Origin: a bacterium | GTDB lineage: Bacteria; Zixibacteria; MSB-5A5; GN15; FEB-12 | DNA: 64,000 nucleotides | Assembly (NCBI GenBank): GCA_043811375.1 | Contig: JBDRNJ010000072.1 | Coordinates: 32,001-96,000, forward strand | Direction of reading: 5' to 3' | Part shown: positions 2,124-36,593 of the stretch, piece by piece | Position numbering within the stretch: the first letter of the stretch is position 1 | Layout of the letters: the number at the start of each line of letters is the position of its first letter | Program-made: the position numbers and the translations under genes | Notes under the pieces: model-generated | Databases searched by the model: none | Told to the model about the DNA's origin: nothing | Seen by the model: the letters and a program-made list of their open reading frames with translations, nothing else

Positions 2124-2605
2124 CAGACTCTCCTGTCCACGGCCACATTAGCCGACACCGGAACCGTCCCGGCGCGGGCGTAGGCACCATCGGGTGTGTG
2201 TAACTTAGCCAGTTGCTTCATCGTTTTGGCGATGTACTCTCGGGACCGGTTCAGCAGCACGGCATTCTGATTGCGAACGTGCAACATCTTGTCATTGAGA
2301 CTGAGGATGGTGTCACGCAGACGGGACAACCGGTCGGATCGATTGCTATCAACCATATCCAGCAGCCGGGTCACGCTGAGATCACCCTCGACCGCGTTGG
2401 CCACCTTGATCTCTTCAATCAGTTGTTCTCGCTGCCGACTCAGAATGCGGCTCTCTATCATTTTTTCACGCTGAAGTTCCGTCACTTGATTGAGTCCTTC
2501 GACGTCATTGGCCACCAGCATCCGCTGCTGTTGCTCAAGCAATTCAAGGAACGACTCAAAGAGAGCCGCTTCCTTGCCCAGAATGTGAATCAATTTTTCT
2601 ACCAT
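2123..2605 (-). CDS. flgN: Flagellar export chaperone FlgN
   Basis: 160-aa helical protein with 'N..N..LL' and a C-terminal Y...G motif, immediately upstream of flgK. Confidence 0.85.
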   Translation of the reverse strand: MVEKLIHILGKEAALFESFLELLEQQQRMLVANDVEGLNQVTELQREKMIESRILSRQREQLIEEIKVANAVEGDLSVTRLLDMVDSNRSDRLSRLRDTILSLNDKMLHVRNQNAVLLNRSREYIAKTMKQLAKLHTPDGAYARAGTVPVSANVAVDRRV

Positions 2606-2638
2606 GTTGGCTCGCTTCCGATTGCGGGCATATCAATT

Positions 2639-2666
2639 TTATCGGATAGTTGTCATGCGATCTTTA
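2639..2666 (-). promoter_or_regulatory. Sigma28 (FliA)-type promoter for flgN-flgK-csrA-flgL
   Basis: TAAA-N16-TCCGATAA on minus strand, 34 bp upstream of flgN start. Confidence 0.7.
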
Positions 2667-3589
2667 GCCTCGTTAGACACGTCTCGGTGGCGTAATGCGA
2701 GGCGATTCATCACTCGGTCAATATACTCGGTTGTTTCCTTAAACGGCGGCACGCCCTGGTAATGCTGAACACGCCCCGGTCCGGCATTGTAAGCGGCCAG
2801 GGCCAGTTTCAGGTCACCAAAACGATCCAGCAGACGTTTGAGATAGCGGCTGCCGGCCAGAATGTTCTCCCGGGGATCAAATGGCCGAGTCACACTATAA
2901 TCCTGTATTGTGGAATCAGTCAGTTGCATGAGACCTTTGGCCCCGGCGTGGGAGACAGCTCGCGGGTTGCCGCTGGATTCTGTCTCGATAACGGCGCAAA
3001 TGAGGGCAGAGTCCAGTGATGTCTCGCCGGCGGCTTCATCTATAATACTGCCGTATCGGGCCATAACGGGATCCGATCGGTCCCGGGGTGCTTGCGCCCG
3101 AGGCGGCAGAGCTGCCGGATGATGCCGTGAGATCGAAAGTGGCGAAGCCATCGGCAGCGGGATATCCGGTCGCCGGCGCCCCAGCGGGATAGCCCGTGGT
3201 GGCGGCGCCTTTAATGATTTGATGGCCGCTTCCGGTTCCTGCCCGTGCTGCCGCTCCAGTACCTGCTCCATAGAATGGTAGAGGATTTCGGCGATTGAAC
3301 TGTTGCCGGATCCGGACATTTTTCGGGCCAGTTCCATGTCGAACATTTGCGTGAAAGTTTCTTTGCCCAGGTCACCCGAGAGAGCGCCCTGTTTCGACAG
3401 ATCGCTTTTGGGAATCGTCTGGCGCATAGTCTTGAGCATCTCGTACATGAACAGCGATTCGAACTCCGCTGCGGCCCGCCGCAGCCGCTGTTTCTCCGAG
3501 GCCAGACCACCCCGGCCGGAGCCTTTGAGTTTCTCCAGGTCCGATTGAGGGTAGACTCCCACGGTGGCTTTGGATACCGGGTAAGACAT
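2639..3589 (-). CDS. flgJ: FlgJ-like rod-binding protein fused to SLT lytic transglycosylase domain
   Basis: N-term 'L..AA.EFESLF...MLK.MR' rod-binding motif; C-term 'ES.GNP.AVS..GAKGLMQL', 'ALAAYNAG', 'PPFKET..Y' SLT motifs; follows flgI. Confidence 0.85.
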   Translation of the reverse strand: MSYPVSKATVGVYPQSDLEKLKGSGRGGLASEKQRLRRAAAEFESLFMYEMLKTMRQTIPKSDLSKQGALSGDLGKETFTQMFDMELARKMSGSGNSSIAEILYHSMEQVLERQHGQEPEAAIKSLKAPPPRAIPLGRRRPDIPLPMASPLSISRHHPAALPPRAQAPRDRSDPVMARYGSIIDEAAGETSLDSALICAVIETESSGNPRAVSHAGAKGLMQLTDSTIQDYSVTRPFDPRENILAGSRYLKRLLDRFGDLKLALAAYNAGPGRVQHYQGVPPFKETTEYIDRVMNRLALRHRDVSNEAKDRMTTIR

Positions 3590-4722
3590 CAGAGTATAAT
3601 CAGCTCCGCTCTGAGGGCACCCACCTGTTTGAGAGCCTGGAAGATGGCAATGATGTCACGTGGCGTGGCCCCGATCCGGTTCATCGCTTTGGCAATATCA
3701 GCCAGATACACTGACCGTTCTAAGTGTACCACCCGTGCCATCTCATCGGTTACCGTGATCCGCGACTCGGAAGTTACGACCGTTTCGCCGGCGGAAAACG
3801 GCTGCGGCTGCGATATGACGGGGGTGGACCTGATGTCGACCGTTATAGTGCCGTGAGCCACCGCTACCGGCTCGATGGTCACATGCTGCCCGGCTACGAT
3901 GGTACCGGTCTTCTCGTTGATAACCACCCGGGCGCTGTTGTCCGGCACCACCTGAAGCAGTCCTATATCGGAAATGAACTTCATCCGCGTAGTAGGATGA
4001 GACAACGAATCCGGAACCATTATCCGGATAGCGCCGCCATCGATGGGATAAGCCATCAGCCCGTACTTGATGTTGATTCGTTCAGCGATGCGATGGGCAG
4101 TCGTGGGATCGGGATTGTGCAGTGAAAGATAAAACTCCCGGTAGGTATCCTCGGGTGTCGGCAGCGCACCGGTGATCTTGCCGCCACCCGGCACCCGACC
4201 GACCAGAGTGTAATTGTTGACGATTTTATTGTCGTCCACCTGAATATTGAAACCGCCGATGGAAACCGGTCCCTGGGCAACAGCGTATACAACCCCGTCC
4301 GGGCCGGACAGCGGCGTCAGCAGCAGAGTGCCGCCCTGCAGCGAGCCGGCGTCGCCCACGGATGAGACGGTGACGTCAAAATAGGCGCCGTCCGTTTGAT
4401 GACTGGATATGCGCGCCGTAACGATTACCGCAGCAACATTCTTAACCTTGACCTTGTCGGCCTCGACTGTCAGCCCCATGCGTTCCATCATATTGACCAG
4501 TGACTGCACTGTAAACTGTGTGCCGGTGCCGTCACCGGTGCCGTCCAGACCGATTATCAAGCCATAACCGACCAGGTCAACTTCCTGCTTGTTCTGGAAA
4601 GAACAGATGTCCTTAACCCTGACTTTACCGGCGTGAAGGGAAGTACCGAGAGTGACCAGGATGATCAGCACCAGCACCCAACGCCACCAGATGCGACCGG
4701 TTCTAATGGTAATAGTTGACAT
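3589..4722 (-). CDS. flgI: Flagellar P-ring protein
   Basis: RVKDI..., LVGYGLIIGLDGTGD, SLQGGTLL.TPL, VVINEKTGTIV, LQALK..GAL.AEL-type end. Confidence 0.96.
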   Translation of the reverse strand: MSTITIRTGRIWWRWVLVLIILVTLGTSLHAGKVRVKDICSFQNKQEVDLVGYGLIIGLDGTGDGTGTQFTVQSLVNMMERMGLTVEADKVKVKNVAAVIVTARISSHQTDGAYFDVTVSSVGDAGSLQGGTLLLTPLSGPDGVVYAVAQGPVSIGGFNIQVDDNKIVNNYTLVGRVPGGGKITGALPTPEDTYREFYLSLHNPDPTTAHRIAERINIKYGLMAYPIDGGAIRIMVPDSLSHPTTRMKFISDIGLLQVVPDNSARVVINEKTGTIVAGQHVTIEPVAVAHGTITVDIRSTPVISQPQPFSAGETVVTSESRITVTDEMARVVHLERSVYLADIAKAMNRIGATPRDIIAIFQALKQVGALRAELIIL

Positions 4723-4731
4723 ACTATTCTC

Positions 4732-5322
4732 CTAAAAAAGCCAGCTTAAGAAACGGGATATGGGTCCCGGTCGGGAACTGGTGCTGGCGTTGCCCTTACC
4801 CGAGTAATGGATTTCAGCATCGGCAATCAGGTAAGAATCGATAGTGTTTTGCGGCGTTACATCTTTTTGCCTGACAACACCGGCCAGGTTAAGTGTCTCC
4901 CGGTCACCGGAGAGACCGATAGTACGGGAGCCTTCGATAATGAGATCACCACTTGGTTTGACCGCCACCACTGTTACCGACATCCTGGCTCGCAGGCTGC
5001 CGTTGCGGATATTCTCACCCTTGCCGTCATGCGAACCCTTGGTGCTGCCGTCGGCGCCAAACAATGGCAGGAAATCCAAGGGACCGACACCCGGGCCTCC
5101 TTTGGCGGAGAACTTGGACGTTTTTTCGGTCTTGGTTTCCACCTTCTGGGACGCCTGGTTCTGCTCATAGATAAGCACGGTTAGAATATCACCGACCTTG
5201 TGGGCCTTGATATCCGTGAACAACGACTGGTTCTGCCCGAAATCCTGGCCCTGCGTTCTCATTGATAGGAACGGCAACAACAACAGTATCAACAGTACTA
5301 TCAGCGCGGTTTTGTATCTCAT
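4732..5322 (-). CDS. flgH: Flagellar L-ring protein (no lipobox Cys)
   Basis: SLF.D.KA..VGDILTV.I.E, G.VR..DV...NTI.S..IADA.I.YSG.G motifs; between flgA and flgI; start chosen at ATG 5322 after AAAGGTG. Confidence 0.92.
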   Translation of the reverse strand: MRYKTALIVLLILLLLPFLSMRTQGQDFGQNQSLFTDIKAHKVGDILTVLIYEQNQASQKVETKTEKTSKFSAKGGPGVGPLDFLPLFGADGSTKGSHDGKGENIRNGSLRARMSVTVVAVKPSGDLIIEGSRTIGLSGDRETLNLAGVVRQKDVTPQNTIDSYLIADAEIHYSGKGNASTSSRPGPISRFLSWLF

Positions 5323-5349
5323 TTCTGCACCTTTCATCAGACTGACGGC

Positions 5350-6042
5350 TTAGCGGTCGACCGCCACCACGGTTTCATCGACCACCCGGGCTACAATAAT
5401 TTTTCCCGACTGTCTGTTTTTCACTTTGACATATTCCCCGGCTATCCCCGCTTGCAGGGCCACCCCGGCCACAGTAATGCGGAACAGATCATCGACGTAG
5501 ACGATGGATACTTCCCTCCCGGCCTCGATATCGGGCACCGGCTCAACGGCACCGGTGGTGAGGATGGTACCCCGGCGAAGATTGCGCCTGGCCCGGAAGC
5601 CGTCGATTTCGGACAGTGTCCGCAGAGGTGTCTCATTCAGAGAGGTGACGTCCATACGCCTGATAGTCAGGCATTGCCCGGTCAGCAACTGGCGGTTTCT
5701 GATCTTGTCGGCAGCCACCAGGACATCGGCGAATTTCTTTATACGCAGCCGCACCTGTCCGCTCTCTATGACCCGCCCGTCGTCTTTGACATCAACCATG
5801 ACGGTAAACAGCCCCAATGGTTCTTTGGGCGTCAGCGGGCGGATGATGATATCATCCGACTCGATGTCGACTGATTTCAAGCGACAGGAGAGAACTTCGA
5901 CGGCATAGGCATTGGTATCCAGATCGTACATAGCGGCCAGCCTGCCGGTAATGGCCTGTTCACAGGTAGCCGCCTGCGGCGACTCGCCCGAAACCAGGAG
6001 CGCCACTACAACCGTTAGCAAAACCGCCAGATAGTTTTTCAT
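5350..6042 (-). CDS. flgA: P-ring assembly chaperone FlgA
   Basis: Signal peptide, SAF-like region, 'G.ALQ.G..GE.V.VKN..SGKII.ARV' motif. Confidence 0.92.
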   Translation of the reverse strand: MKNYLAVLLTVVVALLVSGESPQAATCEQAITGRLAAMYDLDTNAYAVEVLSCRLKSVDIESDDIIIRPLTPKEPLGLFTVMVDVKDDGRVIESGQVRLRIKKFADVLVAADKIRNRQLLTGQCLTIRRMDVTSLNETPLRTLSEIDGFRARRNLRRGTILTTGAVEPVPDIEAGREVSIVYVDDLFRITVAGVALQAGIAGEYVKVKNRQSGKIIVARVVDETVVAVDR

Positions 6043-6049
6043 GGTATCG

Positions 6050-6838
6050 TTACCTCTTGAGATTGTTGGCGATGCCGGCCATGTCGTCGGCGGTCTGAAT
6101 AGCCTTGGAGTTCATTTCGTACGACCGCTGGGCGACGATCATGTTTACCATTTCATCGATGACCTTGACGTTGGACGTTTCCAGGGCACCCTGATCGATC
6201 TGCCCCATACCGCTCTGGGTCGGGACATCGGTGATAGGGTCTCCGGAAGCCCCAGTAGGCATCAACAGATTGTGTCCGATAGCCATCAGTCCGGCCGGAT
6301 TCACAAAACGGGCCAGTTCGATCTGTCCGATCTGGGTCGGCTCATCCTGCCCGACCAGCAGCACCTCAATCACACCGTCGCTGCCTACGGATACCGCCGT
6401 GGCATCCTCGGGTATGGTCAACTCCGGTAACATAAAGTAGCCGTCGCTGGTTACTACCCGGCCATCGGCCGACAGTTTGAAAGCGCCGTCCCTGGTGTAG
6501 GCGGTAGTGCCGTCGGGATACTGAACCTGGAAGAACCCATCGCCACTGATGGCCAGGTCCAGCGGATTGCCGGTGGGCATCAGGGTACCTCCGGAGAAAT
6601 GCCTGACAGTGGAGCTGGCCCGGGTCCCGTAACCGATAGCCAGACCGGTCGGCAGTTCCGAACCAACCGCCGTGGCGCTTCCGGCACGACGATAATTCTG
6701 GTATAAAACATCCTGAAACTCCACCTTGCTTCTTTTGAAACCGGTGGTGTTCACGTTGGCCAGATTGTTGGCGATATTGTCCACATTCATCTGCTGCGCC
6801 AGCATACCTGACGCCGCAGTTCGCATAGCTTTGAGCAT
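6050..6838 (-). CDS. flgG: Distal rod protein FlgG
   Basis: IANNLANVNTTGFK, FQDVLYQ, YTRDGAF, LETSNV..EMV.MI.AQR.YE.NSK. Confidence 0.97.
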   Translation of the reverse strand: MLKAMRTAASGMLAQQMNVDNIANNLANVNTTGFKRSKVEFQDVLYQNYRRAGSATAVGSELPTGLAIGYGTRASSTVRHFSGGTLMPTGNPLDLAISGDGFFQVQYPDGTTAYTRDGAFKLSADGRVVTSDGYFMLPELTIPEDATAVSVGSDGVIEVLLVGQDEPTQIGQIELARFVNPAGLMAIGHNLLMPTGASGDPITDVPTQSGMGQIDQGALETSNVKVIDEMVNMIVAQRSYEMNSKAIQTADDMAGIANNLKR

Positions 6839-6865
6839 GGCTTCTCCAAATCAAAAGCGCTTATG

Positions 6866-7597
6866 TCAGCCCGTCTTGCCGACGCGCTGGAACAGATGTT
6901 CCAGCGACCGGTCCTGGGCTTGCAGGGCGCGTGAGTTTGCCTCGTAAGCGCGGAAAGAGACAATCATTTCGATCATCTCCCCCACGACATCAACGTTAGA
7001 CGCCTCCAGGTATCCCTGGCGGATTTCAGCCTGGGTTACCGGTATCAGTTCCACACCTTCGGGAACCAGAAAAAGCGAGTTGCCTATTTTATTCAGACTT
7101 TGCAGGTCATCGACGGTCACCGGTACGATACGCCCGACCGCAGATCCATCGACCTCCACTCCACCCGACTGATCCACCGTCACCTTACCGTTGCCTGCCT
7201 CAATCGGCCCTCCTTCCCCCAGCAGAAAAGCACCACCGGGAAAAACCATGAACCCCTCATTGTTTATTGTAAAGGAACCGGATCGAGTCAGAGCCTGGGT
7301 ACCGTCAGCAAGTTCGAGCGTAAAAAATCCATCGCCGTCGATGGCCAAGTCCAGCGGATTGCCGGTCTTGTCAAAGGTACCGGAAGCAAAATCCGTGTAG
7401 GTCTCATTGACCATCGGCTGATGCCAGTCGGTCCGGGTGGGTATCAGTTTTTTCTCTGCCCGGCTGAGTTCTTTGGTGAAAAGCATGTCGCGCTTATATC
7501 CGGGAGTGCTGACGTTAGATATATTGTGAGCCGTCAGTTCCTGTTTCTTGATCCGGGGCAACATTCCCGAGGCCGATGTATACAAACCCTTAATCAT
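6866..7597 (-). CDS. flgF: Proximal rod protein FlgF
   Basis: MIKGLYTSASGM start with GGAGG RBS; TGNPLDLAIDGDGFF; GYLEASNV; upstream of flgG. Confidence 0.9.
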   Translation of the reverse strand: MIKGLYTSASGMLPRIKKQELTAHNISNVSTPGYKRDMLFTKELSRAEKKLIPTRTDWHQPMVNETYTDFASGTFDKTGNPLDLAIDGDGFFTLELADGTQALTRSGSFTINNEGFMVFPGGAFLLGEGGPIEAGNGKVTVDQSGGVEVDGSAVGRIVPVTVDDLQSLNKIGNSLFLVPEGVELIPVTQAEIRQGYLEASNVDVVGEMIEMIVSFRAYEANSRALQAQDRSLEHLFQRVGKTG

Positions 7598-7620
7598 GGT
7601 ATCCTCCGCCGACAGATAAA

Positions 7621-7636
7621 GCATGGGCTGTGCCAA
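7621..7636 (-). promoter_or_regulatory. Sigma54 -24/-12 promoter of flgF operon
   Basis: TTGGCAC-AGCCC-ATGC on minus strand with correct GG-N10-GC spacing, 24 bp upstream of flgF. Confidence 0.75.
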
Positions 7637-7736
7637 CAATCTCGGGGTCGCCGGAAGTGACGAAATACCAAGTTGTTACGGATATTATTCGGGGCCGCTT
7701 CGAACCCGGGGGGATTATTAAAAGGAAACTATTTCT

Positions 7737-8012
7737 TCAGACCCTGGGATATTTTTTCATTGGTCCGGGGGGGGGTGCCGTGGATTTGTCGGATACTACC
7801 GATTTCTTCAAATTGGCGTGCCGGGCGCGGGTTTTGTCGATCAATCGGTCAACTGCTTCATTAAAACGGCTCTCACTGTAGAACTCTCCGTTGGATTGCT
7901 GGTACAAAGGACAGTCGGCTTTGTAGCCGAAGCATTTCAGTTCTTCGGCCAGATAGCAAGCCTTCAGGTAAACACAGCGTTCGGACCTTTTGCAGATCGA
8001 CTCGCGGTTCAT
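7737..8012 (-). CDS. Small Cys-rich hypothetical protein
   Basis: ORF with C-x5-C-x5-C-x7-C-x6-C filling the intergenic gap, co-oriented with flagellar genes; GCCGATAA motif at 8021-8028 just upstream of ATG 8012. Confidence 0.6.
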   Translation of the reverse strand: MNRESICKRSERCVYLKACYLAEELKCFGYKADCPLYQQSNGEFYSESRFNEAVDRLIDKTRARHANLKKSVVSDKSTAPPPGPMKKYPRV

Positions 8013-8312
8013 AGTCGGCATTATCGGCAACTGACGCCGTCCGGATGAGTCCCCCGGGGATCACAATTCGGTGATCGTGGGTAATCCGCTTGCAGGCAAG
8101 ACTGAATTGAAGTGCATACGTAAGGAGTGAAGCTAAAAAACCTGTTGCTTTCCGACGGCGCAAACCTTATATTTCCGAGGATCAAAGAAGCGTACTATCA
8201 AGTACTTACAGAAGCGTCTCCGGACGCACTCTGATATTTGACAGATTTTCAGTATTCCTGTCGAGACAGCATCTTATTTGCTTAAAAACAGGTTTGTTGT
8301 ACAAGAGGTAAT

Positions 8313-9077
8313 TTGATGCACACAAGAATGTTTTTTATCACCGGTGCCCTTCTGATAATGTCACTGGTCCCCTGCTGGGGTCAGACATTGATCGAAGATC
8401 CCGGAAATCCTGACTGGGTAATGGTGGATTCGGCCATAGTATCCAAGTCCGGACCTGGTTTGGTGGCGATCGATTTTGTCAATGATGAGTCCCTGGCTGG
8501 AATCGAAATAACGTTGATCTTCGACTCACCCGACCTGACCATAGACTCGATTTCGTTTGCCGCATCCAGGGTGGAATATGCCACAGTCAAGGGATTCATG
8601 ACCAGCGACAGTACCATCACGGTTTACTGTTTCCCCATTTCCGAGGAACAACTGATTGCTCCCGGTACCGGATTGTTCGGGACCTTGTACTTCTCCTACC
8701 CGCCTTCAATCGACGACCAGGTGGTCATAATTGACACTTTCACGATAATCAACGGCGACATTGAGTACTCCACAACATTTTCCGATTCGATATCCAATGT
8801 CTTCAAACCGCAATTTCAGAAAGGCTATCTTGACATCCAGGGCGGCAGTAGTTGTTGCATCGGTAATCGTGGTAATGTAGACGGCAGCCCGGACGATGTC
8901 ATCAGTGTGGGCGACCTGACCTATCTGGTAGCCTATCTCTTCCAGGGCGGAGCTCCCCCGCCATGTATGCCGGAGGGCAATGTCGATGGCGATGAACTGG
9001 GTGTGGTCGTCGGAGACCTGACGTACCTGGTGGCTTATCTGTTCCAGGGAGGAGCAAACCCGCCCTTGTGCCCCTGA
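8313..9077 (+). CDS. Secreted cohesin-like beta-sandwich protein with C-terminal dockerin-like domain
   Basis: Signal peptide; 'V.IDF.N...LAGIEI.L.F...L.IDS.SF..SR' cohesin-like pattern; duplicated GNVDG...GDLTYLVAYLFQGG..PP.C. Confidence 0.8.
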   Translation: MMHTRMFFITGALLIMSLVPCWGQTLIEDPGNPDWVMVDSAIVSKSGPGLVAIDFVNDESLAGIEITLIFDSPDLTIDSISFAASRVEYATVKGFMTSDSTITVYCFPISEEQLIAPGTGLFGTLYFSYPPSIDDQVVIIDTFTIINGDIEYSTTFSDSISNVFKPQFQKGYLDIQGGSSCCIGNRGNVDGSPDDVISVGDLTYLVAYLFQGGAPPPCMPEGNVDGDELGVVVGDLTYLVAYLFQGGANPPLCP

Positions 9078-9128
9078 AATCGATGAGTATTGTTGCCCCC
9101 TGCCGTCATTAGCCAACCGGTACTTCCC

Positions 9129-9575
9129 TTATCCCTCTTTCAGCCGGAAGCTGTTGATCGCTATCTCATCGTTTTCCTTGGTGGTCAACATCCGGACCTT
9201 CTCATCAAAGTGTCGACGACGACGATCTCTCAGTTTTTCAAAAACCTTACGCTCTTTTGAGGCCTTCAGTAAAGCCTGGTGTTTTTCACCGGCCATCTTC
9301 TGAAAAGCCCGTAAAAGCTCATCACCGGCCAGCAAGTCTCTTTTGAGTTTATTGACGTAGCGGGCATGGATGAGCATCCCCGCCACCGACAGCCGGTCGC
9401 TCAGCCGATGGCGTTGCCGATCTATCGTGTCCAGTTTGTGTCGGCTGACCTCCCCCTGACGCCGCCGTTGATCGTAGACTTGCTTCAGGGCAGTGGCGTG
9501 TTCCTTCTGCTTCTCTCTTTCGATATGCTCTTTAGCTTTGAGTAAAACCTGAAGACGAAACCGGAACTTTTTCAT
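9129..9575 (-). CDS. fliJ: Flagellar export protein FliJ
   Basis: MKKFRFRLQ.LL..KE, 'A..ERK..EKL', 'E..E.DE.A'; downstream of fliI. Confidence 0.9.
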   Translation of the reverse strand: MKKFRFRLQVLLKAKEHIEREKQKEHATALKQVYDQRRRQGEVSRHKLDTIDRQRHRLSDRLSVAGMLIHARYVNKLKRDLLAGDELLRAFQKMAGEKHQALLKASKERKVFEKLRDRRRRHFDEKVRMLTTKENDEIAINSFRLKEG

Positions 9576-9579
9576 CGGT

Positions 9580-10920
9580 TCAGTCCGTTTCGGTCACGGT
9601 TGAATCGTCGGCCATGATGGCCTGCAATTGCTCAAATGATTCGGAGTATTGGGCTTGTTCGTCGATCCCCTGTCGGAAGAAGGCATTGATGGCGTCTATC
9701 TTTGAAATGGCTCGATCTATACGAGGATTGGATCCCTTGACGTAGGCGCCGATGTTAATGAGGTCTTCGGCTTCACGGTAGACCGAAACCAATTCGCGCA
9801 GTTCTCCGGCCAGAGCAACTTCTTCGGGTGTGCACACTTCCACCATCAACCGGCTGATGGAATCAAGAATATCGACGGCCGGGTACTGGTTGAGTGATGC
9901 CAGCCGTCGCGAGAGTGTCACGTGTCCGTCCAGTATCGATCTGACGGCATCGGAAATCGGTTCGTTGAGATCATCACCTTCCACCAGCACCGTGTACAGG
10001 CCGGTTATGGAACCGACATCGTTCTGTCCGGCTCGTTCCAGCAGACGCGGCAGCATCGCAAACACCGACGGCGTGTATCCTTTGGTGGTGGGCGGTTCAC
10101 CGATGGCAATGCCGATTTCTCTCTGGGCCATGGCGATTCGGGTCAGGGAGTCCATCAGCAGCATCACATCCATTCCCTGATCACGAAAGTATTCGGCGAT
10201 AGCGGTAGCTACCTGAGCGCCTTTAATGCGAATCAATGAGGGTTGATCGGAAGTAACGGCCACAACCACCGTCTTCTTCATGCCTGCCGTTCCCAGATCG
10301 GACTCGATAAATTCTCGCACTTCCCGTCCCCGTTCACCCACCAGAGCAACGACGTTGACATCAGCCGAGGATCCGCGGGCCATCATGCCCAGCATAACCG
10401 ACTTGCCCACTCCCGAACCGGAGAAGATGCCCATTCGCTGCCCCTTGCCCACGGCCGCGGTCAGATCGACAGCCCTGATACCGGTGCGGAGGGCCTGAGT
10501 GATGCGCCGTCTTTTCAGGGCCGGGATGGGGTCGGCGTTGATGGGTCGCGTCACGTTTGTCAAAATCGCCCCCCGGTCATCGATCGGTTGCCCCAGGCCG
10601 CCGAGAATCCGGCCGATCAGTTCTTGTCCGACGGGGATACGCAGTTGCTCCGATGTCGAGGTGACAATAGCTCCCGGTGTAATGCCGGTAATCGATCCCA
10701 ACGGCATCAACAGAAGACGGTCATCGCGAAAACCAACCACTTCGGCCCGGATCCGGGCACCGGTGTCGTGGTTCTCGATGTTGCACAGACGACCTATTGA
10801 AACGGCCGGACCGGCTGATTCGATAACCAGCCCCACCACCTGCGTAACCTTGCCGAAATGGGTAACAGTGCGGGCATTCCTGATACGCTCGGCATAGACA
10901 TCGTAGGCAACCAGACTCAC
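9580..10920 (-). CDS. fliI: Flagellar export ATPase
   Basis: GSGVGKS Walker A, GERGREV, MDSLTR, GEPPTTKGY. Confidence 0.97.
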   Translation of the reverse strand: MSLVAYDVYAERIRNARTVTHFGKVTQVVGLVIESAGPAVSIGRLCNIENHDTGARIRAEVVGFRDDRLLLMPLGSITGITPGAIVTSTSEQLRIPVGQELIGRILGGLGQPIDDRGAILTNVTRPINADPIPALKRRRITQALRTGIRAVDLTAAVGKGQRMGIFSGSGVGKSVMLGMMARGSSADVNVVALVGERGREVREFIESDLGTAGMKKTVVVAVTSDQPSLIRIKGAQVATAIAEYFRDQGMDVMLLMDSLTRIAMAQREIGIAIGEPPTTKGYTPSVFAMLPRLLERAGQNDVGSITGLYTVLVEGDDLNEPISDAVRSILDGHVTLSRRLASLNQYPAVDILDSISRLMVEVCTPEEVALAGELRELVSVYREAEDLINIGAYVKGSNPRIDRAISKIDAINAFFRQGIDEQAQYSESFEQLQAIMADDSTVTETD

Positions 10921-30346: not shown

Positions 30347-31660
30347 CTACTTTCTGCGGAATTTCACACGGAAAGGAACACCCTCAAAACCGTACTCCCG
30401 CCGAATCTGGTTGGAGAGAAAGGCAATGTAGGACTTGTCGATCAAGGTAGGACGGTTGGCAAAGAAAACAAACGTCGGCGGCGCCACTTCCGTTTGCGCC
30501 ACATAGTTGATCTTGATGTATTTGCCCTGACGGGCCGGTGGCTGCCGGCGTCGCAGAACCTTCTGCAGAAATTCGTTCAGTTCCGAAGTGACGATACGTT
30601 TTCTGGCTTCATGATAGACTGCCGAGGCTATAGACATCGCTTTAGCCACCCGCTGCCCCGTCAGGGCTGAAACGTAAATCACCGGCAGGTGGGCATACCG
30701 GGCCAGGATGGCATTGATCGCCTTGGTGTAACGATCGGCGGTATTGGGGTCCTTCTCGACCAGGTCCCACTTGTTGACCGCCATAAGAGCCGAACGACGG
30801 GCACCGAAGACCTGGTCCAATATACGGCGATCCTGGGTCGTCAGACCATCAACGGCGTCAACCAGAACGATAGCCACATCGCAGCCATCGATAGCCCGGA
30901 CAGTGCGCAGGGAGGTGTAGAACTCGACGTTTTCCCAAATCTTGTATTTCCGGCGCAGGCCCGCCGTATCGACCAGGACGTAGTCCTGACCGTCCATCTC
31001 CCAGGGCGTATCCACGGCATCCCGTGTGGTACCGGCTATCGGCGTGACCAGCAGGCGCGGCTGCCCGACCAGCACATTTATGAATGAGGACTTGCCGACA
31101 TTGGGACGACCCACCAGCGCCACTCGGATAGTGCTGCCGCTATCGTCATCAGCAGCCTCTTGCCGCGGCAAACAGTTCACCAACTTGTCCAGCAGATCCC
31201 CCACTCCAAGGCCGACTCTCGCCGACACCGCGATCGGGTCGCCGATCCCCAGGGCGAGAAACTGGTACACCTCGCTTTCATCCTGGTCGCTGTCAACCTT
31301 GTTGGCCACCAGCAGGCATTTTTTGCCCGATTGCTGCAGACGCCGGGCGATCTGCCGATCGGTGGTATCCAGGCCCACCTTGGTATCGACGAGAAACAGG
31401 ACCAGTTCGGATTCGTTGACGGCAAACTCGGTCTGGTCGTGGATAAGTTGCTCCATCAGGTCATCCGAATCGGGCGCCATGCCGCCGGTGTCGACCAGGC
31501 GAAAACTGGTGCCGGTCCAGTCACAGACGGCATAGTTGCGATCGCGAGTGATCCCCGGCCGTTCGTGCACCACAGCCAACTGCCTTTGCAGCATACGGTT
31601 GAACAACGATGATTTGCCGACGTTGGGGCGGCCCACTATGGCCACCGTGGCCAGTTTCAC
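30347..31660 (-). CDS. der: Ribosome biogenesis GTPase Der (EngA)
   Basis: Two GRPNVGKSS G-domains, DTGG/DTAG, NKVD/NKWD, KH-like C-terminus. Confidence 0.97.
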   Translation of the reverse strand: MKLATVAIVGRPNVGKSSLFNRMLQRQLAVVHERPGITRDRNYAVCDWTGTSFRLVDTGGMAPDSDDLMEQLIHDQTEFAVNESELVLFLVDTKVGLDTTDRQIARRLQQSGKKCLLVANKVDSDQDESEVYQFLALGIGDPIAVSARVGLGVGDLLDKLVNCLPRQEAADDDSGSTIRVALVGRPNVGKSSFINVLVGQPRLLVTPIAGTTRDAVDTPWEMDGQDYVLVDTAGLRRKYKIWENVEFYTSLRTVRAIDGCDVAIVLVDAVDGLTTQDRRILDQVFGARRSALMAVNKWDLVEKDPNTADRYTKAINAILARYAHLPVIYVSALTGQRVAKAMSIASAVYHEARKRIVTSELNEFLQKVLRRRQPPARQGKYIKINYVAQTEVAPPTFVFFANRPTLIDKSYIAFLSNQIRREYGFEGVPFRVKFRRK

Positions 31661-32940
31661 GCGAAAACCTCCCTGATTGTCCGGGCCAGATCATAATGAC
31701 CGATCCGTACTTCCCGCCCCAGTTCAGCCTGAAACTCCGACAGCGACATGTCATCCAGAAAGAGCTGATCGGCATTGAGACAATTCGGCGGCAATACCAC
31801 CAGATCGAACTCACCGGCAACCGGTCGTGCCTTAGCCAGCAGATCGCGTCCGGTCAGCAGGCCGGAAACCGTCACTGTCTTACCCCAAAAACGGTTGTCA
31901 ACCGGACGGACGGACAGATTCAGATCGAGGTTCCGGTGAATCCAGGACATGATTCCCCTGTTAAACAGTGATTCGGCCGACCTGCCGGTAAGAAAAAGCA
32001 CCCGACGATCGGAACGGATCTTCCTCAGATGCTGACGTCGACGGTCAAACATGGCGAGAAACTCCTGGTTCATTCCCACACCGTTTTCAAACTGCGCCAG
32101 GTCCTCATAAGTTTTCCGTGGTGGAAAAGACCGGCCTGCCAGCAGATGAAATTCATCAGACGGCCAGACAAAGCGAGTACCCAGTTTCCGGTACAGTTCT
32201 TTCTGACGTTCAAAAATGAAGTCCAGCACATCGGCCGCCTCAAATCGATTGAATATCCGCAGTTCCGGCAAACCGTTACGATAACGGGTCAGCCCCACCG
32301 GCACTATCGCCAGCGTTTGGATTCCCGGATAGAGCGCCGACAAATCATCGACTGTCTGCTTCAGATAGCGCCCGTCATTTATACCCGGGCAGAGAACAAC
32401 CTGGGTATGCAGAGTAATGCCGTTTTCGGTCAGACGCCGCAACAACGGCAGTATCGGCGGCAATTGGCGGTTACCCAACATCCGGCGGCGCAGCGTATCG
32501 TCGGTAGTGTGCACCGAAACATAAAGAGGCGACAGGCGTTGTTCGATAATACGCGCCATGTCCGACTCAGTGAGATTACTGAGAGTAATGTAATTGCCGT
32601 GAGTAAATGAGAGCCGGTAGTCCTCGTCCTTGACATAAAGACTGCGGCGCATCCCTTTCGGCTGCTGGTGAACAAAACAGAAGATACACTTGCAGCGACA
32701 ACGCCTGACACGGTCGTCCTGAAAAGTCAATCCCAGCGACCCGGCCGAGGTTTCATCCAGCCGGTATTCCATCTCCCGGCCACTGCGGTCGGCAAACCGG
32801 ATTTTGACCTGTTCATCGGCGGTACGAAAACGAAAGTCGATACTATCCAGCACCGGCCGGCCATTGACGGTCAGCACCCGGTAACCGGGGCGCACCTGTC
32901 CCGTGAGGGGTGAATCGGGATCAACATGCGTAATCTTCAT
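31657..32940 (-). CDS. DUF512 family PDZ + radical-SAM-like Fe-S protein
   Basis: CRCKCIFC (CxxxCxxC), SLYVKDEDYRLSF..GNYITL, ENGVG; commonly adjacent to der. Confidence 0.9.
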   Translation of the reverse strand: MKITHVDPDSPLTGQVRPGYRVLTVNGRPVLDSIDFRFRTADEQVKIRFADRSGREMEYRLDETSAGSLGLTFQDDRVRRCRCKCIFCFVHQQPKGMRRSLYVKDEDYRLSFTHGNYITLSNLTESDMARIIEQRLSPLYVSVHTTDDTLRRRMLGNRQLPPILPLLRRLTENGITLHTQVVLCPGINDGRYLKQTVDDLSALYPGIQTLAIVPVGLTRYRNGLPELRIFNRFEAADVLDFIFERQKELYRKLGTRFVWPSDEFHLLAGRSFPPRKTYEDLAQFENGVGMNQEFLAMFDRRRQHLRKIRSDRRVLFLTGRSAESLFNRGIMSWIHRNLDLNLSVRPVDNRFWGKTVTVSGLLTGRDLLAKARPVAGEFDLVVLPPNCLNADQLFLDDMSLSEFQAELGREVRIGHYDLARTIREVFA

Positions 32941-33027
32941 GGTCGGTTACAAAAAAAACTCCGACATATACAACCATCGTAACATTTGCACTGTGCGTCT
33001 TGACCCAACGTGGAGTCCACATGCCAG

Positions 33028-33137: not shown

Positions 33138-33974
33138 ATGAACCTGACCAAGAATGGAGTTCTTTGCGGAGTCATGGCAGTAGTTATGTCGGCGACAACC
33201 GGCACGGCTCAGGATACCGCGAATATTGATTCTTTCCCGGACATTGTTGCAGAAGTTCGTCGATCGGTCGCCCTTGTGAAAGTGAAAACTGATATCAAAA
33301 ACGTTTTCGCATTGGGTACGGCTTTCATCCTAAAGTACAAAGATGACAAAGCATACTTGGCAAGCGCGTATCACACTTTTTTCGAGCCTATCAAACATGA
33401 GGATACAGTTGTGATCTCCGATACATCGCGTGTCGAGATAATGTTTGATTCCGACAACTCGTTCCGACCCGCCCATGTTGTCTTTACACGCAAGTCCAAA
33501 GACATCGCACTTGTGACAGTAGATATACCTCTCGACTCCCTTCAACAGTTGGGTCTTCTTGCTCTTAGCCTTGGGAAAGTCAAGACAATCCGTGAAGGCG
33601 CAAGCGTGGCAAGTACCGGCTATAACTTCCTGCAAAGGACAGTGGATTTCGGCCAGTGGCGTTATTGGCCGACCACTTATAAAGGCATTATCAGTTCCGT
33701 AAGAGCTATTTCGCCGGAAGGTGAGCCACCGTTTATCGACCGATTCCAAGTTGATCTGCCCTTGAATCAAGGTGCGAGCGGTTCTCCGGTATATCTTACA
33801 TCCGACAAAACAGTGGTTGGCATGTTTAATAAGTTTGCGACACAAGAATCTGGTGATGCCACTGTCCCAGTAGGGCTCGCATATTGCATCCCATCTTGGG
33901 CTATTCACAACTGTCTCGCCGATTACCTCAAGGAGTTACAGAACTCTGACACAACGAGCACGAGTAAAGATTAA
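33138..33974 (+). CDS. Secreted trypsin-like serine protease
   Basis: Signal peptide; SAYH (His), KDIAL (Asp), NQGASGSPV (Ser); AAGGAGG RBS; AT-richer than flanks. Confidence 0.88.
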   Translation: MNLTKNGVLCGVMAVVMSATTGTAQDTANIDSFPDIVAEVRRSVALVKVKTDIKNVFALGTAFILKYKDDKAYLASAYHTFFEPIKHEDTVVISDTSRVEIMFDSDNSFRPAHVVFTRKSKDIALVTVDIPLDSLQQLGLLALSLGKVKTIREGASVASTGYNFLQRTVDFGQWRYWPTTYKGIISSVRAISPEGEPPFIDRFQVDLPLNQGASGSPVYLTSDKTVVGMFNKFATQESGDATVPVGLAYCIPSWAIHNCLADYLKELQNSDTTSTSKD

Positions 33975-34001
33975 CTGTGTAAGCAGCTTGTAGTATGCGG
34001 T

Positions 34002-34181
34002 TCACGCTCTCAGGCTGTAGGCAGGGCTGTGCTGCACGTAGGTGTCCAGAATGTCCCGGTCGCCCAAGCGGACATACCGCTCCGGAACGACCAACGTGCT
34101 GTGGCCGAGAGCCTTCTGCAGCACAGGCAGTGATGCCGATTTGCTAGCCCACCGAGAGCTTGATGAATCTACCTGGCACAT
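34002..34181 (-). pseudogene. Tyrosine recombinase C-terminal remnant 1
   Basis: Manual translation ...SLPVLQKALGHSTLVVPERYVRLGDRDILDTYVQHSPAYSLRA*, matching box II 'LQ..LGHS....T..Y' plus the terminal 'Y...SP...L' helix. Confidence 0.75.
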
Positions 34182-34298
34182 GGGAAACGAGAAGATTCTT
34201 GACCATTCGAGGAGATTTCGGTATTTTTGAAATACTGAGAGATGTGAATAGTGTTTTTTGAACGTTTATATGGCAAATCTCGTACTAGGGAGTCACTG

Positions 34299-34712
34299 AT
34301 GTACAAAGAAGATCAAGATCTAACCGACGCACTTGTCGAACTCGGCTTGATAGTGGTTGTATTGGGAGTGGGATACATCGTCTTGAGAACCATCGATCGT
34401 TTTGAGAGAAAACAGCGGGCTTCTGTAGAGGACTTGCACGAATTAAAGGCACTGTCAGATCAGGAGCGCGCATCCGAAGAGCCGAACAATGAACTGCGGG
34501 GTGCGTCCGAAGAACCAGACGACGAACTCAGTAGGTGTATCGCGGCCGAAGCTGAAGGAAAAGACGTCTGCTGGGATTGTTATACGATAGAACCCGTACG
34601 CTGTGAAAACTCGGGCTGCGCTGATGTATATACAGGCAAAAGTATTTGCTTCCACTGTCCCGACAATGATTATAGCCCCACGTGGGGGCCTTATTGCAAC
34701 ACCTGCGTTTAG
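34299..34712 (+). CDS. Hypothetical membrane-anchored protein with Cys-rich (putative Zn-binding) C-terminus
   Basis: AGGGAG RBS; one TM helix; CWDC, CENSGC, CFHC, CNTC; 33-bp internal duplication. Confidence 0.65.
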   Translation: MYKEDQDLTDALVELGLIVVVLGVGYIVLRTIDRFERKQRASVEDLHELKALSDQERASEEPNNELRGASEEPDDELSRCIAAEAEGKDVCWDCYTIEPVRCENSGCADVYTGKSICFHCPDNDYSPTWGPYCNTCV

Positions 34713-34747
34713 TGTAGGCTAGTTATTAATATGGGCGCACCGCTTCA

Positions 34748-34834
34748 TCACACGCTCAGGCTGTTGGCTGGGCTGAATCTATCGTAGCTCCGCACCATGT
34801 CCTCGGTCAGCAGGTGAGTATAGAGCACAGTCAT
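34748..34834 (-). pseudogene. Tyrosine recombinase C-terminal remnant 2
   Basis: Manual translation MTVLYTHLLTEDMVRSYDRFSPANSLSV*, the 'MT..YTHL..ED....Y..FSP...L' integrase tail; about 40 bp from tRNA 3' end; DNA similar to remnant 1 (cacgctc..aggctgt.ggc.gggctg). Confidence 0.7.
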
Positions 34835-34871
34835 TCTATTAGTGTTTTTCCCCGAGAAGACTTGGTCTTAT

Positions 34872-34943
34872 AGCGGGCGAGGAGGGTCGAACTCCCGACG
34901 TCAAGCTTGGGAAGCTTGCATTCTACCACTGAATTACGCCCGC
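34872..34943 (-). tRNA. tRNA-Gly(CCC)
   Basis: GCGGGCG/CGCCCGC acceptor stem, CAAGC-TTCCCAA-GCTTG anticodon arm, GTTCGA T-loop; CCA not encoded; TTGACA-N17-TAGATT promoter at 34964-34992. Confidence 0.97.
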
Positions 34944-35141
34944 CGGTTCCAAATGTCGCAAGTAATCTATATGGCAGCCAGCCGGTTGTCAACGCCTTCA
35001 TGGTCTGATTAACCCGGTTGATATTTTGTTTGATTCGAATGATCGAAGCTCTCATTTTAGTAGTGTTAGTGTGTGATCGTCCCGGTCGGTAACGGACGGA
35101 TTGGAAGCACCGGACATATAATAGTCGGAGGATAACCAACA

Positions 35142-36593
35142 GTGCCGCAGAAGGAAAACCGCAAAGTCGAGCCCAAACGGTATCGAGTGTCCGGGCTGAC
35201 GTGTGTATTGGCGGCTTTTGTCCTCTCCCGCGTGGTCTATTTCGCCCTCGGGATTCGTTTCGACCTGCGGCCGCTGGACTACTTCTGGCAGTATGTTGAT
35301 CCGGAGTTGTTGCGCACCAACCTGCTGCAGAGCCTGTACTATCTCCACAGCCAGCCGCCGCTGTTTAACCTGTTTCTGGGAACGGTCCTGAAACTGTTCC
35401 CCGGTTCCGAGACGCTCGCTTTTCACATCACGTTTTTGGCCTGCGGCCTGGTTCTGGCGGTTTCTCTGTACCTGCTGATGGCGCGCCTGGGGGTGTCGGA
35501 AAGACTCAGCGCTATCCTGACGATCCTGTTAATCGCCGGTCCCTCCGCTATCCTGTATGAGAACTTCCTGTTCTATACTTACCCGGTCGCAGCCATGCTC
35601 TGCCTGTCGGCGCTGGCGCTGCTGCACTATGTCAGAACGGAGCGGTTTCGCAGCCTGGTGTTTTTTTTCGTCCTGCTGGCGGCACTGGTACTGACGCGAT
35701 CAGCCTTCCACCTGGTGTGGTATGTCATTATGGTTCTGGCGCTGACCTGGTGCCTGCGAAAACAGTGGCGGCGTGTGCTGCTGGCGGCGAGCGTGCCGTT
35801 CCTATTTTGCCTGCTTCTGTACGCCAAGAACGTTCACGAGTTCGGCAGCTTCAGCAGTAGCAGTTGGTTCGGGATGAACTTTGCCCGAATGACAACCTGG
35901 GAGCTGACGGTTGCCGAGCGCATGCGCCTGATTGAGCGCAGGGAGTTGTCGCCACTGTCTCTGGCTAAACCGTTTCGCGACCTGGAAACATACCAGCGTC
36001 ACTCCCAATTTCCCCTGGCCGAACCGACGGGCATTCCGGTGCTGGATCAGAAGCAGAAATCATCGGGGGCGCCCAATCTGAACAACCTCACCTATGTCAG
36101 GTTGTCGCGAGAATACCGCCGGGACGCAATGTACGTACTGACCAACTACCCGGGCACGTACCTGATGAGCCTGTTGAAGTCTTTAGCCACCTACTTTATT
36201 CCCATCAGTTCGTATCCGTTCGTCAGCGACAACCGGGAGCAGATAAGTTACCTGGATCGGGCCTGTAATCTTGTTCTTTGCGGTCAGTTACGGTACGAGG
36301 ACGAAGTAACCGACATCCGGTCCTGGCAAAACACCGGCTGGCTCACAGCGCTGGCGTATTTAGTGGTGATAATATACGGGTTTCTATTGCTCCGGCAGGC
36401 TTACCGGCAACGGCGGCTGGATACTCCATCGGCTGTCGTGCTCTTGTTTATCTGGTTAAATGTGGTCTACATTACGGTGGCGGGAAACGCTTTTGAACTG
36501 GGTGAAAACAACCGTTTTCGCCTGGTGGTGGAACCGCTGTTTTTCACTCTGCTGGGTCTGGCCCTGAAGAACCGTTTCCGCCGACCGACCTGA
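35142..36593 (+). CDS. Polytopic membrane protein, possibly GT-C fold glycosyltransferase-like
   Basis: About 10 TM helices with a large soluble loop; 'H.QPPL.N' and C-terminal 'E..RFR' motifs. Confidence 0.65.
   Translation: MPQKENRKVEPKRYRVSGLTCVLAAFVLSRVVYFALGIRFDLRPLDYFWQYVDPELLRTNLLQSLYYLHSQPPLFNLFLGTVLKLFPGSETLAFHITFLACGLVLAVSLYLLMARLGVSERLSAILTILLIAGPSAILYENFLFYTYPVAAMLCLSALALLHYVRTERFRSLVFFFVLLAALVLTRSAFHLVWYVIMVLALTWCLRKQWRRVLLAASVPFLFCLLLYAKNVHEFGSFSSSSWFGMNFARMTTWELTVAERMRLIERRELSPLSLAKPFRDLETYQRHSQFPLAEPTGIPVLDQKQKSSGAPNLNNLTYVRLSREYRRDAMYVLTNYPGTYLMSLLKSLATYFIPISSYPFVSDNREQISYLDRACNLVLCGQLRYEDEVTDIRSWQNTGWLTALAYLVVIIYGFLLLRQAYRQRRLDTPSAVVLLFIWLNVVYITVAGNAFELGENNRFRLVVEPLFFTLLGLALKNRFRRPT

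What the first reader, a model, noticed from the sequence alone, without database searches (positions are those of the whole stretch)
33138..34943. tRNA-Gly-anchored tandem array of 'integrase tail + convergent cargo gene' cassettes
Seen: starting at the tRNA-Gly(CCC) 3' end there are two units, each a tyrosine-recombinase C-terminal fragment (34748-34834 'MT..YTHL...Y..FSP...L*'; 34002-34181 'LQKALGHS...RY...Y...SP...L*') followed tail-to-tail by one cargo gene (Cys-rich membrane protein; secreted serine protease). The two tails are related but diverged, and neither is in the ORF track. No full integrase or tRNA-end duplication was found. Established: tRNA 3' ends are integration hotspots for tyrosine-integrase elements. 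Inference: either two related elements inserted serially and decayed the same way, or conserved integrase 3' ends act as recombination joints that capture and swap single cargo genes, as in a cassette array.
Basis: partly seen in the sequence, partly recalled or inferred. Interest (0 to 1): 0.7.

Follow-up and report, generated by a model that had tools for sequence, protein, structure and literature searches.

The report
Decayed integrase island behind tRNA-Gly
Behind a glycine tRNA gene lie the stumps of two different integrase genes and of one insertion sequence, interleaved with two accessory genes; they are likely leftovers of mobile elements that piled up here and were trimmed by deletion, an ordinary way of growing genomic islands, although hints remain that the integrase ends may also serve as swap points for cargo.

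Summary
Both fragments are 3' ends of a family of ~310-aa tRNA-targeting tyrosine integrases: 30 and 44 bits against a profile of intact relatives, versus 6.3 at most in 200 shuffles. They come from two different subfamilies. The upper part of 'tail 2' is an IS1380-family remnant whose outward promoter faces the Cys-rich gene. The 1.93-kb stretch is an insertion: tRNA-Gly(CCC) abuts DUF512 in 21 of 29 relatives. At the same tRNA, one relative has the intact integrase, one has head+tail with a tRNA-end duplicate, and two have the tail with other cargo. A full-length family member sits elsewhere in this genome. Across 285 genomes, head-only remnants (12) are as common as tail-only ones (13), and tail breakpoints are staggered. 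Tandem accretion plus deletion is therefore the best reading. Tails acting as swap joints is not excluded: two genomes of another genus carry integrase-cargo-tail-cargo-tail arrays with clustered breakpoints, and tail 2 may be a mosaic. This scan's earlier, unchecked notes describe similar tail arrays in other lineages.

The parts
34871..34944 (-). tRNA-Gly(CCC), the integration target; no CCA encoded
   Evidence: ARAGORN; Rfam. In relatives it abuts DUF512 or carries this element family.
34838..34871 (-). Likely remnant of the element's left end, next to attL
   Evidence: 19/35 nt identical, ungapped, to the left end of the G156 element and 20/35 to L156, with a 9-nt block shared with G156 at the same offset; only 13/35 to intact G184. 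Moderate evidence.
34748..34834 (-). Tail 1: last 28 codons and stop of a Gly-type tyrosine integrase, including the catalytic Tyr motif
   Evidence: 82% aa identity to the G002 tail; 19/28 aa to intact L124; profile score 30.3 bits.
34299..34712 (+). Cargo 1: 137-aa protein with one hydrophobic segment and a Cys-rich end (9 Cys); unnamed family
   Evidence: no Pfam or PADLOC hit.
34182..34282 (+). Right end of an IS1380-family element with an outward sigma70-like promoter (34199-34227) facing cargo 1
   Evidence: 101-bp repeat found in 12 of 108 family genomes. Copies L178 and L188 carry the transposase C-terminus upstream; the L178 piece matches PF13701 at E 1.8e-15. Promoter-like site.
34128..34167 (+). 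40-bp piece of an IS1380-family transposase N-terminus
   Evidence: 92.5% identical to contig C44. The C44 frame matches PF13701 positions 3-35 weakly (E 0.0049, below cut-off) and lies between two terminal inverted repeats.
34002..34133 (-). Tail 2: last ~41-43 codons and stop of a second integrase subfamily (nearest intact ones sit at tRNA-Val, -Asp or -Asn); decaying, with changes at two near-invariant positions
   Evidence: 57-60% aa identity to G050 and G179; 22/41 aa; DNA alignment; alignment A4.
33138..33974 (+). Cargo 2: trypsin-like serine protease with a hydrophobic N-terminus (secretion inferred)
   Evidence: PF13365; two homologues at 82% and 51% identity.
32959..33022 (-). Start of a small degenerate ORF-like unit that recurs in such islands; it marks the distal end of the insertion
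   Evidence: Also seen in G156, G002, L126 and own contig C76.
32941..32958 (-). Native T-run spacer that normally follows the tRNA, now displaced next to DUF512
   Evidence: Nearly the same spacer before DUF512 in the close relative L156; T-run spacers in relatives.
31657..32940 (-). Host DUF512/radical-SAM-like gene, the distal flank
   Evidence: Pfam; matched in 39 of 41 genomes.

Best explanation
The 1.93-kb insertion behind tRNA-Gly(CCC) holds the 3' stumps of two different tyrosine-integrase genes and an IS1380-family remnant around two cargo genes, and is likely the trimmed residue of integrative elements that accumulated at this tRNA and were fixed by deletion. Shown: in intact elements of this family the integrase gene starts ~95 bp behind the tRNA, reads away from it, and variable cargo begins right at its stop codon. 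Inferred: (1) elements of two subfamilies stacked at the site; (2) an IS1380-family element landed in or next to the second integrase and supplied a promoter, and perhaps the gene, for the Cys-rich protein; (3) deletions removed the integrase bodies, the att duplicate, the mobility genes and most of the IS; (4) stumps survive because a deletion that spares the cargo leaves whatever touches it, which is the integrase 3' end. With no integrase and no recognisable attR, the island is predicted to be immobile.
For: Empty site in 21 of 29 relatives. A graded series at the same tRNA: intact 309-aa integrase plus type I restriction-modification genes in G184; 9-codon head fused to the tail, AbiJ-type cargo and a 25-bp tRNA-end duplicate in G156; tail only with other cargo in G002 and L156. 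Tail-only fragments start at staggered profile positions, from 227 to 288 of 306. Head control: 13 tail-only remnants among 83 matches and 12 head-only remnants among 85 matches in the same 285 genomes. Tandem stacking of two subfamilies with a 41-bp tRNA-end duplicate between them is seen in G024. An intact integrase followed 50-75 bp later by a foreign tail is seen in G136 and G228. In 8 of 9 pairs of intact integrases that are >=80% identical at the 3' end, the 400 bp after the stop share nothing. Tail 2 carries changes at near-invariant residues. The window's junctions sit at short microhomologies (read by eye).
Against: No att duplicate survives in the window, so serial integration here is inferred from relatives. 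Gly-type tails differ mostly at synonymous sites (for example 8 synonymous to 2-3 non-synonymous codons), while tail-only Gly-type loci outnumber the intact ones found (G184, L124). That needs many recent independent deletions, or refreshment by recombination. G000 and its close relative L156 have left junctions within about 7 bp of each other yet unrelated cargo, which suggests cargo turnover after integrase loss. The last 21 nt of tail 2 match tail 1 at 18/21 but its nearest body relatives at only 9-12/21. In genus g105, five tails start within about 15 bp of each other.
Confidence: 0.68

Rival explanations
1. Tail-anchored cargo exchange. After the integrase is lost, its 3' end is reused as a homology handle. 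Circles or fragments made of tail plus cargo recombine into a resident integrase or tail, by RecA or by relaxed integrase activity, and build integrase-cargo-tail-cargo arrays without att sites.
For: G223 contig C77 reads near-intact integrase, cargo, tail, cargo, tail, cargo, with tails 86-94% identical. G224 contig C133 has 4 co-oriented tails within 16 kb. Five tails there begin just upstream of the HxxR codons behind at least 2-3 different left flanks. Cargo starts at the stop codon in live elements. Possible mosaic end of window tail 2. Similar left junction but different cargo in L156. Back-to-back double tails in L144, L157 and L159.
Against: The window tails share only 51/87 nt and an IS remnant separates them. 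No mosaic signal in 45 pairs of g105 copies (low power). One g105 tail and two other fragments start further in. Arrays were seen in 2 of the 13 g105 genomes searched with tail DNA. No excess of tails over heads phylum-wide. An unsampled subfamily plus codon bias could explain the end of tail 2.
Confidence: 0.22
2. A true integron-like system: the tail DNA is a site-specific recombination site, read by a family integrase in trans such as the intact one on contig C8.
For: An intact family integrase with all catalytic motifs is present in the genome. The tails share a 28-bp end. Breakpoints cluster in g105.
Against: No fixed boundary across the family. Tail DNA varies at synonymous positions like coding sequence. 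No unusual single-strand fold: z between +1.05 and -1.82 for six strands. No inverted-repeat core in the tails. The C8 integrase is a tRNA-His type, 54% and 38% identical to the tails.
Confidence: 0.05
3. SSV-type split integrase: attP lies inside the gene, so integration itself leaves a C-terminal fragment beside the tRNA.
For: Tail 1 lies 37 bp from the tRNA end in the same orientation.
Against: The intact G184 gene is integrated at this tRNA unsplit. The tail frame is closed by a stop just after the tRNA. tRNA-to-tail distances vary from about 10 to 120 bp. No N-terminal half at the far end.
Confidence: 0.02

Closest known systems
CIMEs and tandem accretion of ICE/IME elements at tRNA 3' ends (review PMC5704250; passages read)
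   Same: Site-specific integration, decay with loss of integration and transfer genes, and later arrival of another element at the same att site; tandems of distantly related tyrosine integrases.
   Different: A CIME keeps attL and attR; the window has no recognisable attR. G156 does fit the definition. The host is a different phylum and the integrase family is unnamed.
Tycheposon islands of Prochlorococcus (bioRxiv 10.1101/2020.12.28.424599; passages read)
   Same: tRNA-proximal tyrosine-integrase elements with cargo, serial integration pushing older elements inward, fragmented integrases left behind.
   Different: Different hallmark genes: relatives here carry Replic_Relax, PriCT_1 or DUF5659 genes. 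No partial tRNA is left in the window.
Additive flexible genomic islands of Alteromonas (PMC4898812; passages read)
   Same: tRNA-anchored hotspots with different gene cassettes in close relatives.
   Different: There the markers are tRNA repeats; here they are integrase stumps.
IS1380-family promoter supply and transposable modules (ISEcp1, ISPme1; PMC9330008; passages read)
   Same: Outward promoter at the right end; a published case where deletion left only ~200 bp of the IS including the promoter.
   Different: The gene driven here is an unnamed Cys-rich membrane protein, not a resistance gene. Promoter activity and capture by the IS are untested.
Vibrio cholerae Aux3 (PMC7721734; passages read)
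   Same: Large deletion plus IS interruption of the integrase locks cargo into the chromosome.
   Different: Aux3 loses the integrase tail and keeps the body; the window keeps only tails.
SSV-type suicidal integrases (PMC7253208; abstract read)
   Same: Integrase fragments beside tRNA genes.
   Different: There integration itself splits the gene at att; here integrated genes are intact when complete.
Integrons and attC cassette arrays (recalled, no paper read)
   Same: Repeated units separating single accessory genes.
   Different: No attC-like fold or fixed boundary; repeats are coding remnants; cargo brings its own promoter or an IS promoter.

Membership tests
Tyrosine recombinase (PF00589) remnant | Sequence match to the catalytic-domain C-terminus | tested here: met
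   Family profile 30.3 and 43.6 bits versus <=6.3 in shuffles; intact relatives match PF00589 at E 1e-31 to 1e-34. Direct Pfam hit of tail 2 is only E 0.21.
tRNA-targeting integrative element (tDNA island) | Insertion at a tRNA end relative to an empty site | tested here: met
   Empty site in 21 of 29 relatives.
tRNA-targeting integrative element (tDNA island) | Displaced tRNA fragment at the distal end | tested here: not met
   None in the window island; present in the relative G156.
tRNA-targeting integrative element (tDNA island) | Intact integrase gene | tested here: not met
   Only tails in the window; intact in G184 at the same tRNA.
CIME (cis-mobilisable element) | Integration and transfer genes lost | tested here: met
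CIME (cis-mobilisable element) | attL and attR retained | tested here: not met
   The attL side is present (tRNA plus likely left end); attR was not found.
IS1380 family remnant | DDE_Tnp_1_4 transposase linked to the repeat, and terminal inverted repeats | tested here: met
   Shown through homologous copies: PF13701 in L178, both inverted repeats at C44. The window holds only a 40-bp transposase piece and the right end.
IS1380 family remnant | Functional outward promoter | not testable with these tools
   Consensus match only, 9 of 12; 3 such sites found against 2.7 expected by chance; the motif is conserved in the aligned copies.
Integron / attC array | Repeated site with fixed boundaries and a folded single-strand structure | tested here: not met
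   Staggered boundaries; fold z-scores not extreme; no Rfam family other than tRNA at gathering score.
Integron / attC array | Integron integrase (IntI) with attI nearby | not tested
   No IntI-specific profile was run. Ten PF00589 matches exist in the genome, none in the window.
SSV-type split integrase | att site inside the integrase reading frame | tested here: not met
   Unsplit gene integrated at this tRNA in G184; frame closed next to the tRNA in the window.
IME with Replic_Relax module (parent elements) | Relaxase/replication gene in the element | tested here: inconclusive
   PF13814 lies beside two intact Arg-type integrases; none in the window; not seen in the G184 contig as far as it reaches.

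The most novel reading that the evidence does not exclude
In this phylum the 3' end of a tRNA-targeting tyrosine integrase gene works as a reusable joint. Tail-plus-cargo units recombine into resident integrases or tails and build integron-like arrays without attC sites. The window is a two-unit, eroded example whose second tail is a crossover product, and the G223 and G224 arrays are fresher examples with a preferred breakpoint just upstream of the HxxR codons.
Probability: 0.22. Interest if true: 0.72.

Novelty: new member of a known kind. Interest (0 to 1): 0.33.

Why it matters
On the best reading this is an ordinary decayed tRNA island. Its value is that it exposes an apparently unnamed family of ~310-aa integrases that target many tRNAs in this uncultured phylum. 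Their cargo slot starts at the integrase stop codon and often holds defence-type genes. Short integrase stumps that Pfam misses are useful markers of such islands. If tails are reused as joints, this would be a route of gene capture that needs neither attC sites nor a resident integrase, and it is testable with long reads or a plasmid assay. I did not find such a system in print in five searches aimed at it; the library lacks most subscription journals, and no supplements were read.

Tried and rejected
Pfam on the fragments alone was nearly blind, so family profiles were built instead. I first read the repeats at C21 and C44 as decayed integrase tails; they are IS1380-family ends, and the tail profile finds no further tail in the genome. 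The short motif at 32998-33022 was considered as an att or arm site; it reads as the start of a small recurring ORF-like unit. SSV-type splitting was rejected. An attC-like fold was not supported. A max-chi mosaic test gave 0 of 45 pairs at p<=0.03. Viral contigs gave 1 distant hit. A search for a full-length protein matching tail 2 found nothing among 10 candidates, which is weak evidence. The atlas search for the Cys-rich protein gave no usable hit. Sequencing runs: no RNA holder listed; two DNA runs with small shares did not span the island and showed no joint between the tails, which proves nothing. The L156 rows were out of frame by one codon and were redone. Rows dropped before the tail count: contig-end cases (for example G014, G136 C47), whole genes with frameshifts (G141, G008, G045, G049, G192), one internal fragment (G011 C23), long-frame hits, and the g105 and G228 tails (above the E 1e-4 cut or found by DNA search). 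For the head count, 20 unpaired matches were fetched: 12 head-only, 5 ambiguous at contig ends, 2 whole but frameshifted, 1 not recovered. The remaining unpaired matches (long frames or contig ends) were not fetched.

Full report
What is there. The window has tRNA-Gly(CCC) at 34871-34944 on the minus strand. Reading away from its 3' end come: a 37-bp spacer; 28 codons ending in a stop (tail 1, 34748-34834); a convergent 137-aa gene; 155 bp of non-integrase DNA; about 41-43 codons ending in a stop (tail 2, 34002 to about 34133); a convergent trypsin-like protease; and the host DUF512 gene. The insertion is 48% G+C against 55-56% for the flanking genes. Record titles of two relatives name the phylum as Candidatus Zixiibacteriota, while two others are labelled Ignavibacteriales by their submitters; the window's own genome carries no name.

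The fragments are real. Pfam gives only E 0.21 for tail 2. Both tails hit the end of a 311-aa integrase on contig C8 of the same genome, at 54% (E 1e-5) and 38% (E 6e-6) identity; that gene starts behind tRNA-His and reads away from it. A profile of 28 intact relatives, containing no window sequence, scores them 30.3 and 43.6 bits; the best of 200 shuffles of the island reached 6.3. The family has PF00589 and SAM-like N-terminal domains, with XerD as the nearest solved structure, and members sit behind many different tRNAs. Tail 1 is the Gly type: 82% identical to a tail at the same tRNA in G002. Tail 2 is nearest to integrases at tRNA-Val, -Asp and -Asn, at 57-60%, though only 22/41 aa against 19/41 for the Arg type. 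The two tails share 9/28 aa and 51/87 nt.

A correction. Positions 34182-34282 are a 101-bp repeat found in 12 of 108 genomes of the family in front of unrelated genes. Two copies carry an IS1380-family transposase end upstream (PF13701 at E 1.8e-15 for the one scanned), and the copy on own contig C44 has both terminal inverted repeats. Positions 34128-34167 match the transposase start of that C44 copy at 92.5%. The repeat contains a sigma70-like promoter facing the Cys-rich gene (a consensus match only). IS1380-family outward promoters, and remnants reduced to the promoter end, are described in PMC9330008 (passages).

The site in relatives. In 21 of 29 relatives the tRNA lies 10-57 bp before DUF512. 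Three have 291-413 bp; G003 and G023 have co-oriented gene insertions without a tail; one locus ends at a contig end; one has another context; and G002 has the same tail with other cargo. Wider searches added three cases. G184 has an intact 309-aa integrase behind this tRNA followed by type I restriction-modification genes. G156 has the element's left end, nine codons of the integrase head fused to the tail, an AbiJ-type gene, a 25-bp duplicate of the tRNA end, and then DUF512. L156, a close relative (flanks 91% identical), has a similar left junction, a more diverged tail and a different single cargo gene.

Decay or joint? Four tests favour decay. First, tail-only fragments begin at staggered positions of the 306-position profile, from 227 to 288. 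Second, a head profile of equal length run over the same 285 genomes finds 12 head-only remnants among 85 matches, against 13 tail-only remnants among 83 (dropped rows are listed under Tried and rejected). My tail-first searches were biased toward tails, and this control removes the apparent preference. Third, the intermediates of accretion and deletion are visible: two subfamilies in tandem with a tRNA-end duplicate between them (G024), an intact integrase followed 50-75 bp later by a foreign tail (G136, G228), and head-plus-tail deletions (G156; G159 read by eye). Fourth, in live elements cargo begins at the integrase stop: 8 of 9 close pairs share nothing in the next 400 bp, so any deletion that spares the cargo leaves a tail. 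The tails show no attC-like fold. This matches tandem accretion and decay as described for CIMEs (PMC5704250, passages), tycheposon islands (10.1101/2020.12.28.424599, passages) and additive islands (PMC4898812, passages).

What does not fit neatly. (a) In genus g105, G223 has a near-intact integrase, cargo, tail, cargo, tail, cargo on one contig, and G224 has four co-oriented tails in 16 kb. Five of these tails start within about 15 bp upstream of the HxxR codons behind at least two or three different left flanks. One tail and two fragments start further in, the mosaic test was negative in 45 pairs, and 11 other genomes of the genus searched showed no array. (b) The last 21 nt of window tail 2 match tail 1 at 18/21 and Gly-type tails at up to 18/21 (12/21 for G002), intact integrases at 13/21 or less, and its nearest body relatives at 9-12/21. 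This may mark a crossover at the Ser-Pro-Ala codons, or an unsampled subfamily. (c) Three metagenome loci have a Gly-type tail followed within 10-32 bp by a tail of the second type. (d) Gly-type tails differ mostly at synonymous sites. These points keep the joint model alive at about one in five. Two earlier notes of this scan describe integrase-tail arrays in an archaeal family and in Flavobacteria; they are unchecked AI notes and are not counted as support.

Verdict. The feature is real. The locus is most likely a grounded, multiply trimmed tRNA island built from an unnamed family of tyrosine-integrase elements plus an IS1380 remnant: a new member of a known kind. The bolder reading, integrase tails as reusable cargo joints, is best pursued in the g105 arrays rather than in this window.

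Noticed in passing
L222 (G223:C77) 1506-9834; L214/L221 (G224:C133): Arrays of 86-94% identical integrase tails separating cargo blocks, five starting just upstream of the HxxR codons. The parent integrases lie on the 5' side of tRNA-Lys(CTT). Best natural test case for a tail-joint mechanism.
   Followed up: partly
window 34182-34282; own contigs C21 73123-73223, C44 66762-67295, C4 ~90500-90630, C11 57588-57689: A 101-bp IS1380-family right end with an outward promoter survives alone in front of many unrelated genes, with 7 matches in G135; C44 holds an internally deleted copy with both inverted repeats.
   Followed up: partly
L005 (own contig C8 517-3069): Intact family element at tRNA-His: 311-aa integrase with convergent DUF5659 and PriCT_1 genes.
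   Followed up: partly
window 34299-34712; proteins P0005-P0015: Unnamed protein family: N-terminal membrane segment, charged linker and a Cys-rich domain with a shared motif around two CxxC-like pairs; no Pfam family above cut-off in 8 homologues scanned.
   Followed up: partly
window 32959-33022 (-); L116 ~7150-7260; L071 ~900-1012; own C76 10246; L126 ~353: A ~100-bp unit that reads as a 30-36-codon hydrophobic ORF, often with an early stop, recurring in these islands and lying before AbiJ-type genes in two of them.
   Followed up: partly
L080 (G008:C3 31139-33938): Island on the 5' side of tRNA-Gly(CCC), bounded by a 45-bp duplicate of the tRNA 5' half, holding four small opposite-strand genes and no integrase of this family.
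   Followed up: no
window 35142-36593; L156 1049-3796: A 483-aa membrane gene lies between tatC and the tRNA, where G002 has none; L156 has a further 355-aa gene there, so the 5' side of this tRNA also takes insertions.
   Followed up: no
L144 3738-10956: tRNA-Gly(TCC) followed by two back-to-back tails, then a DNA methylase and a BsobI-like endonuclease.
   Followed up: partly
L202 (G082:C208) 2828-3884: A single gene between tRNA-Arg(TCT) and a 29-bp duplicate of its end, with no integrase inside, followed by an integrase tail.
   Followed up: no
own contig C21 70500-75000: Several co-oriented accessory genes behind tsaD, with two matches to the IS1380-end profile on this contig.
   Followed up: no
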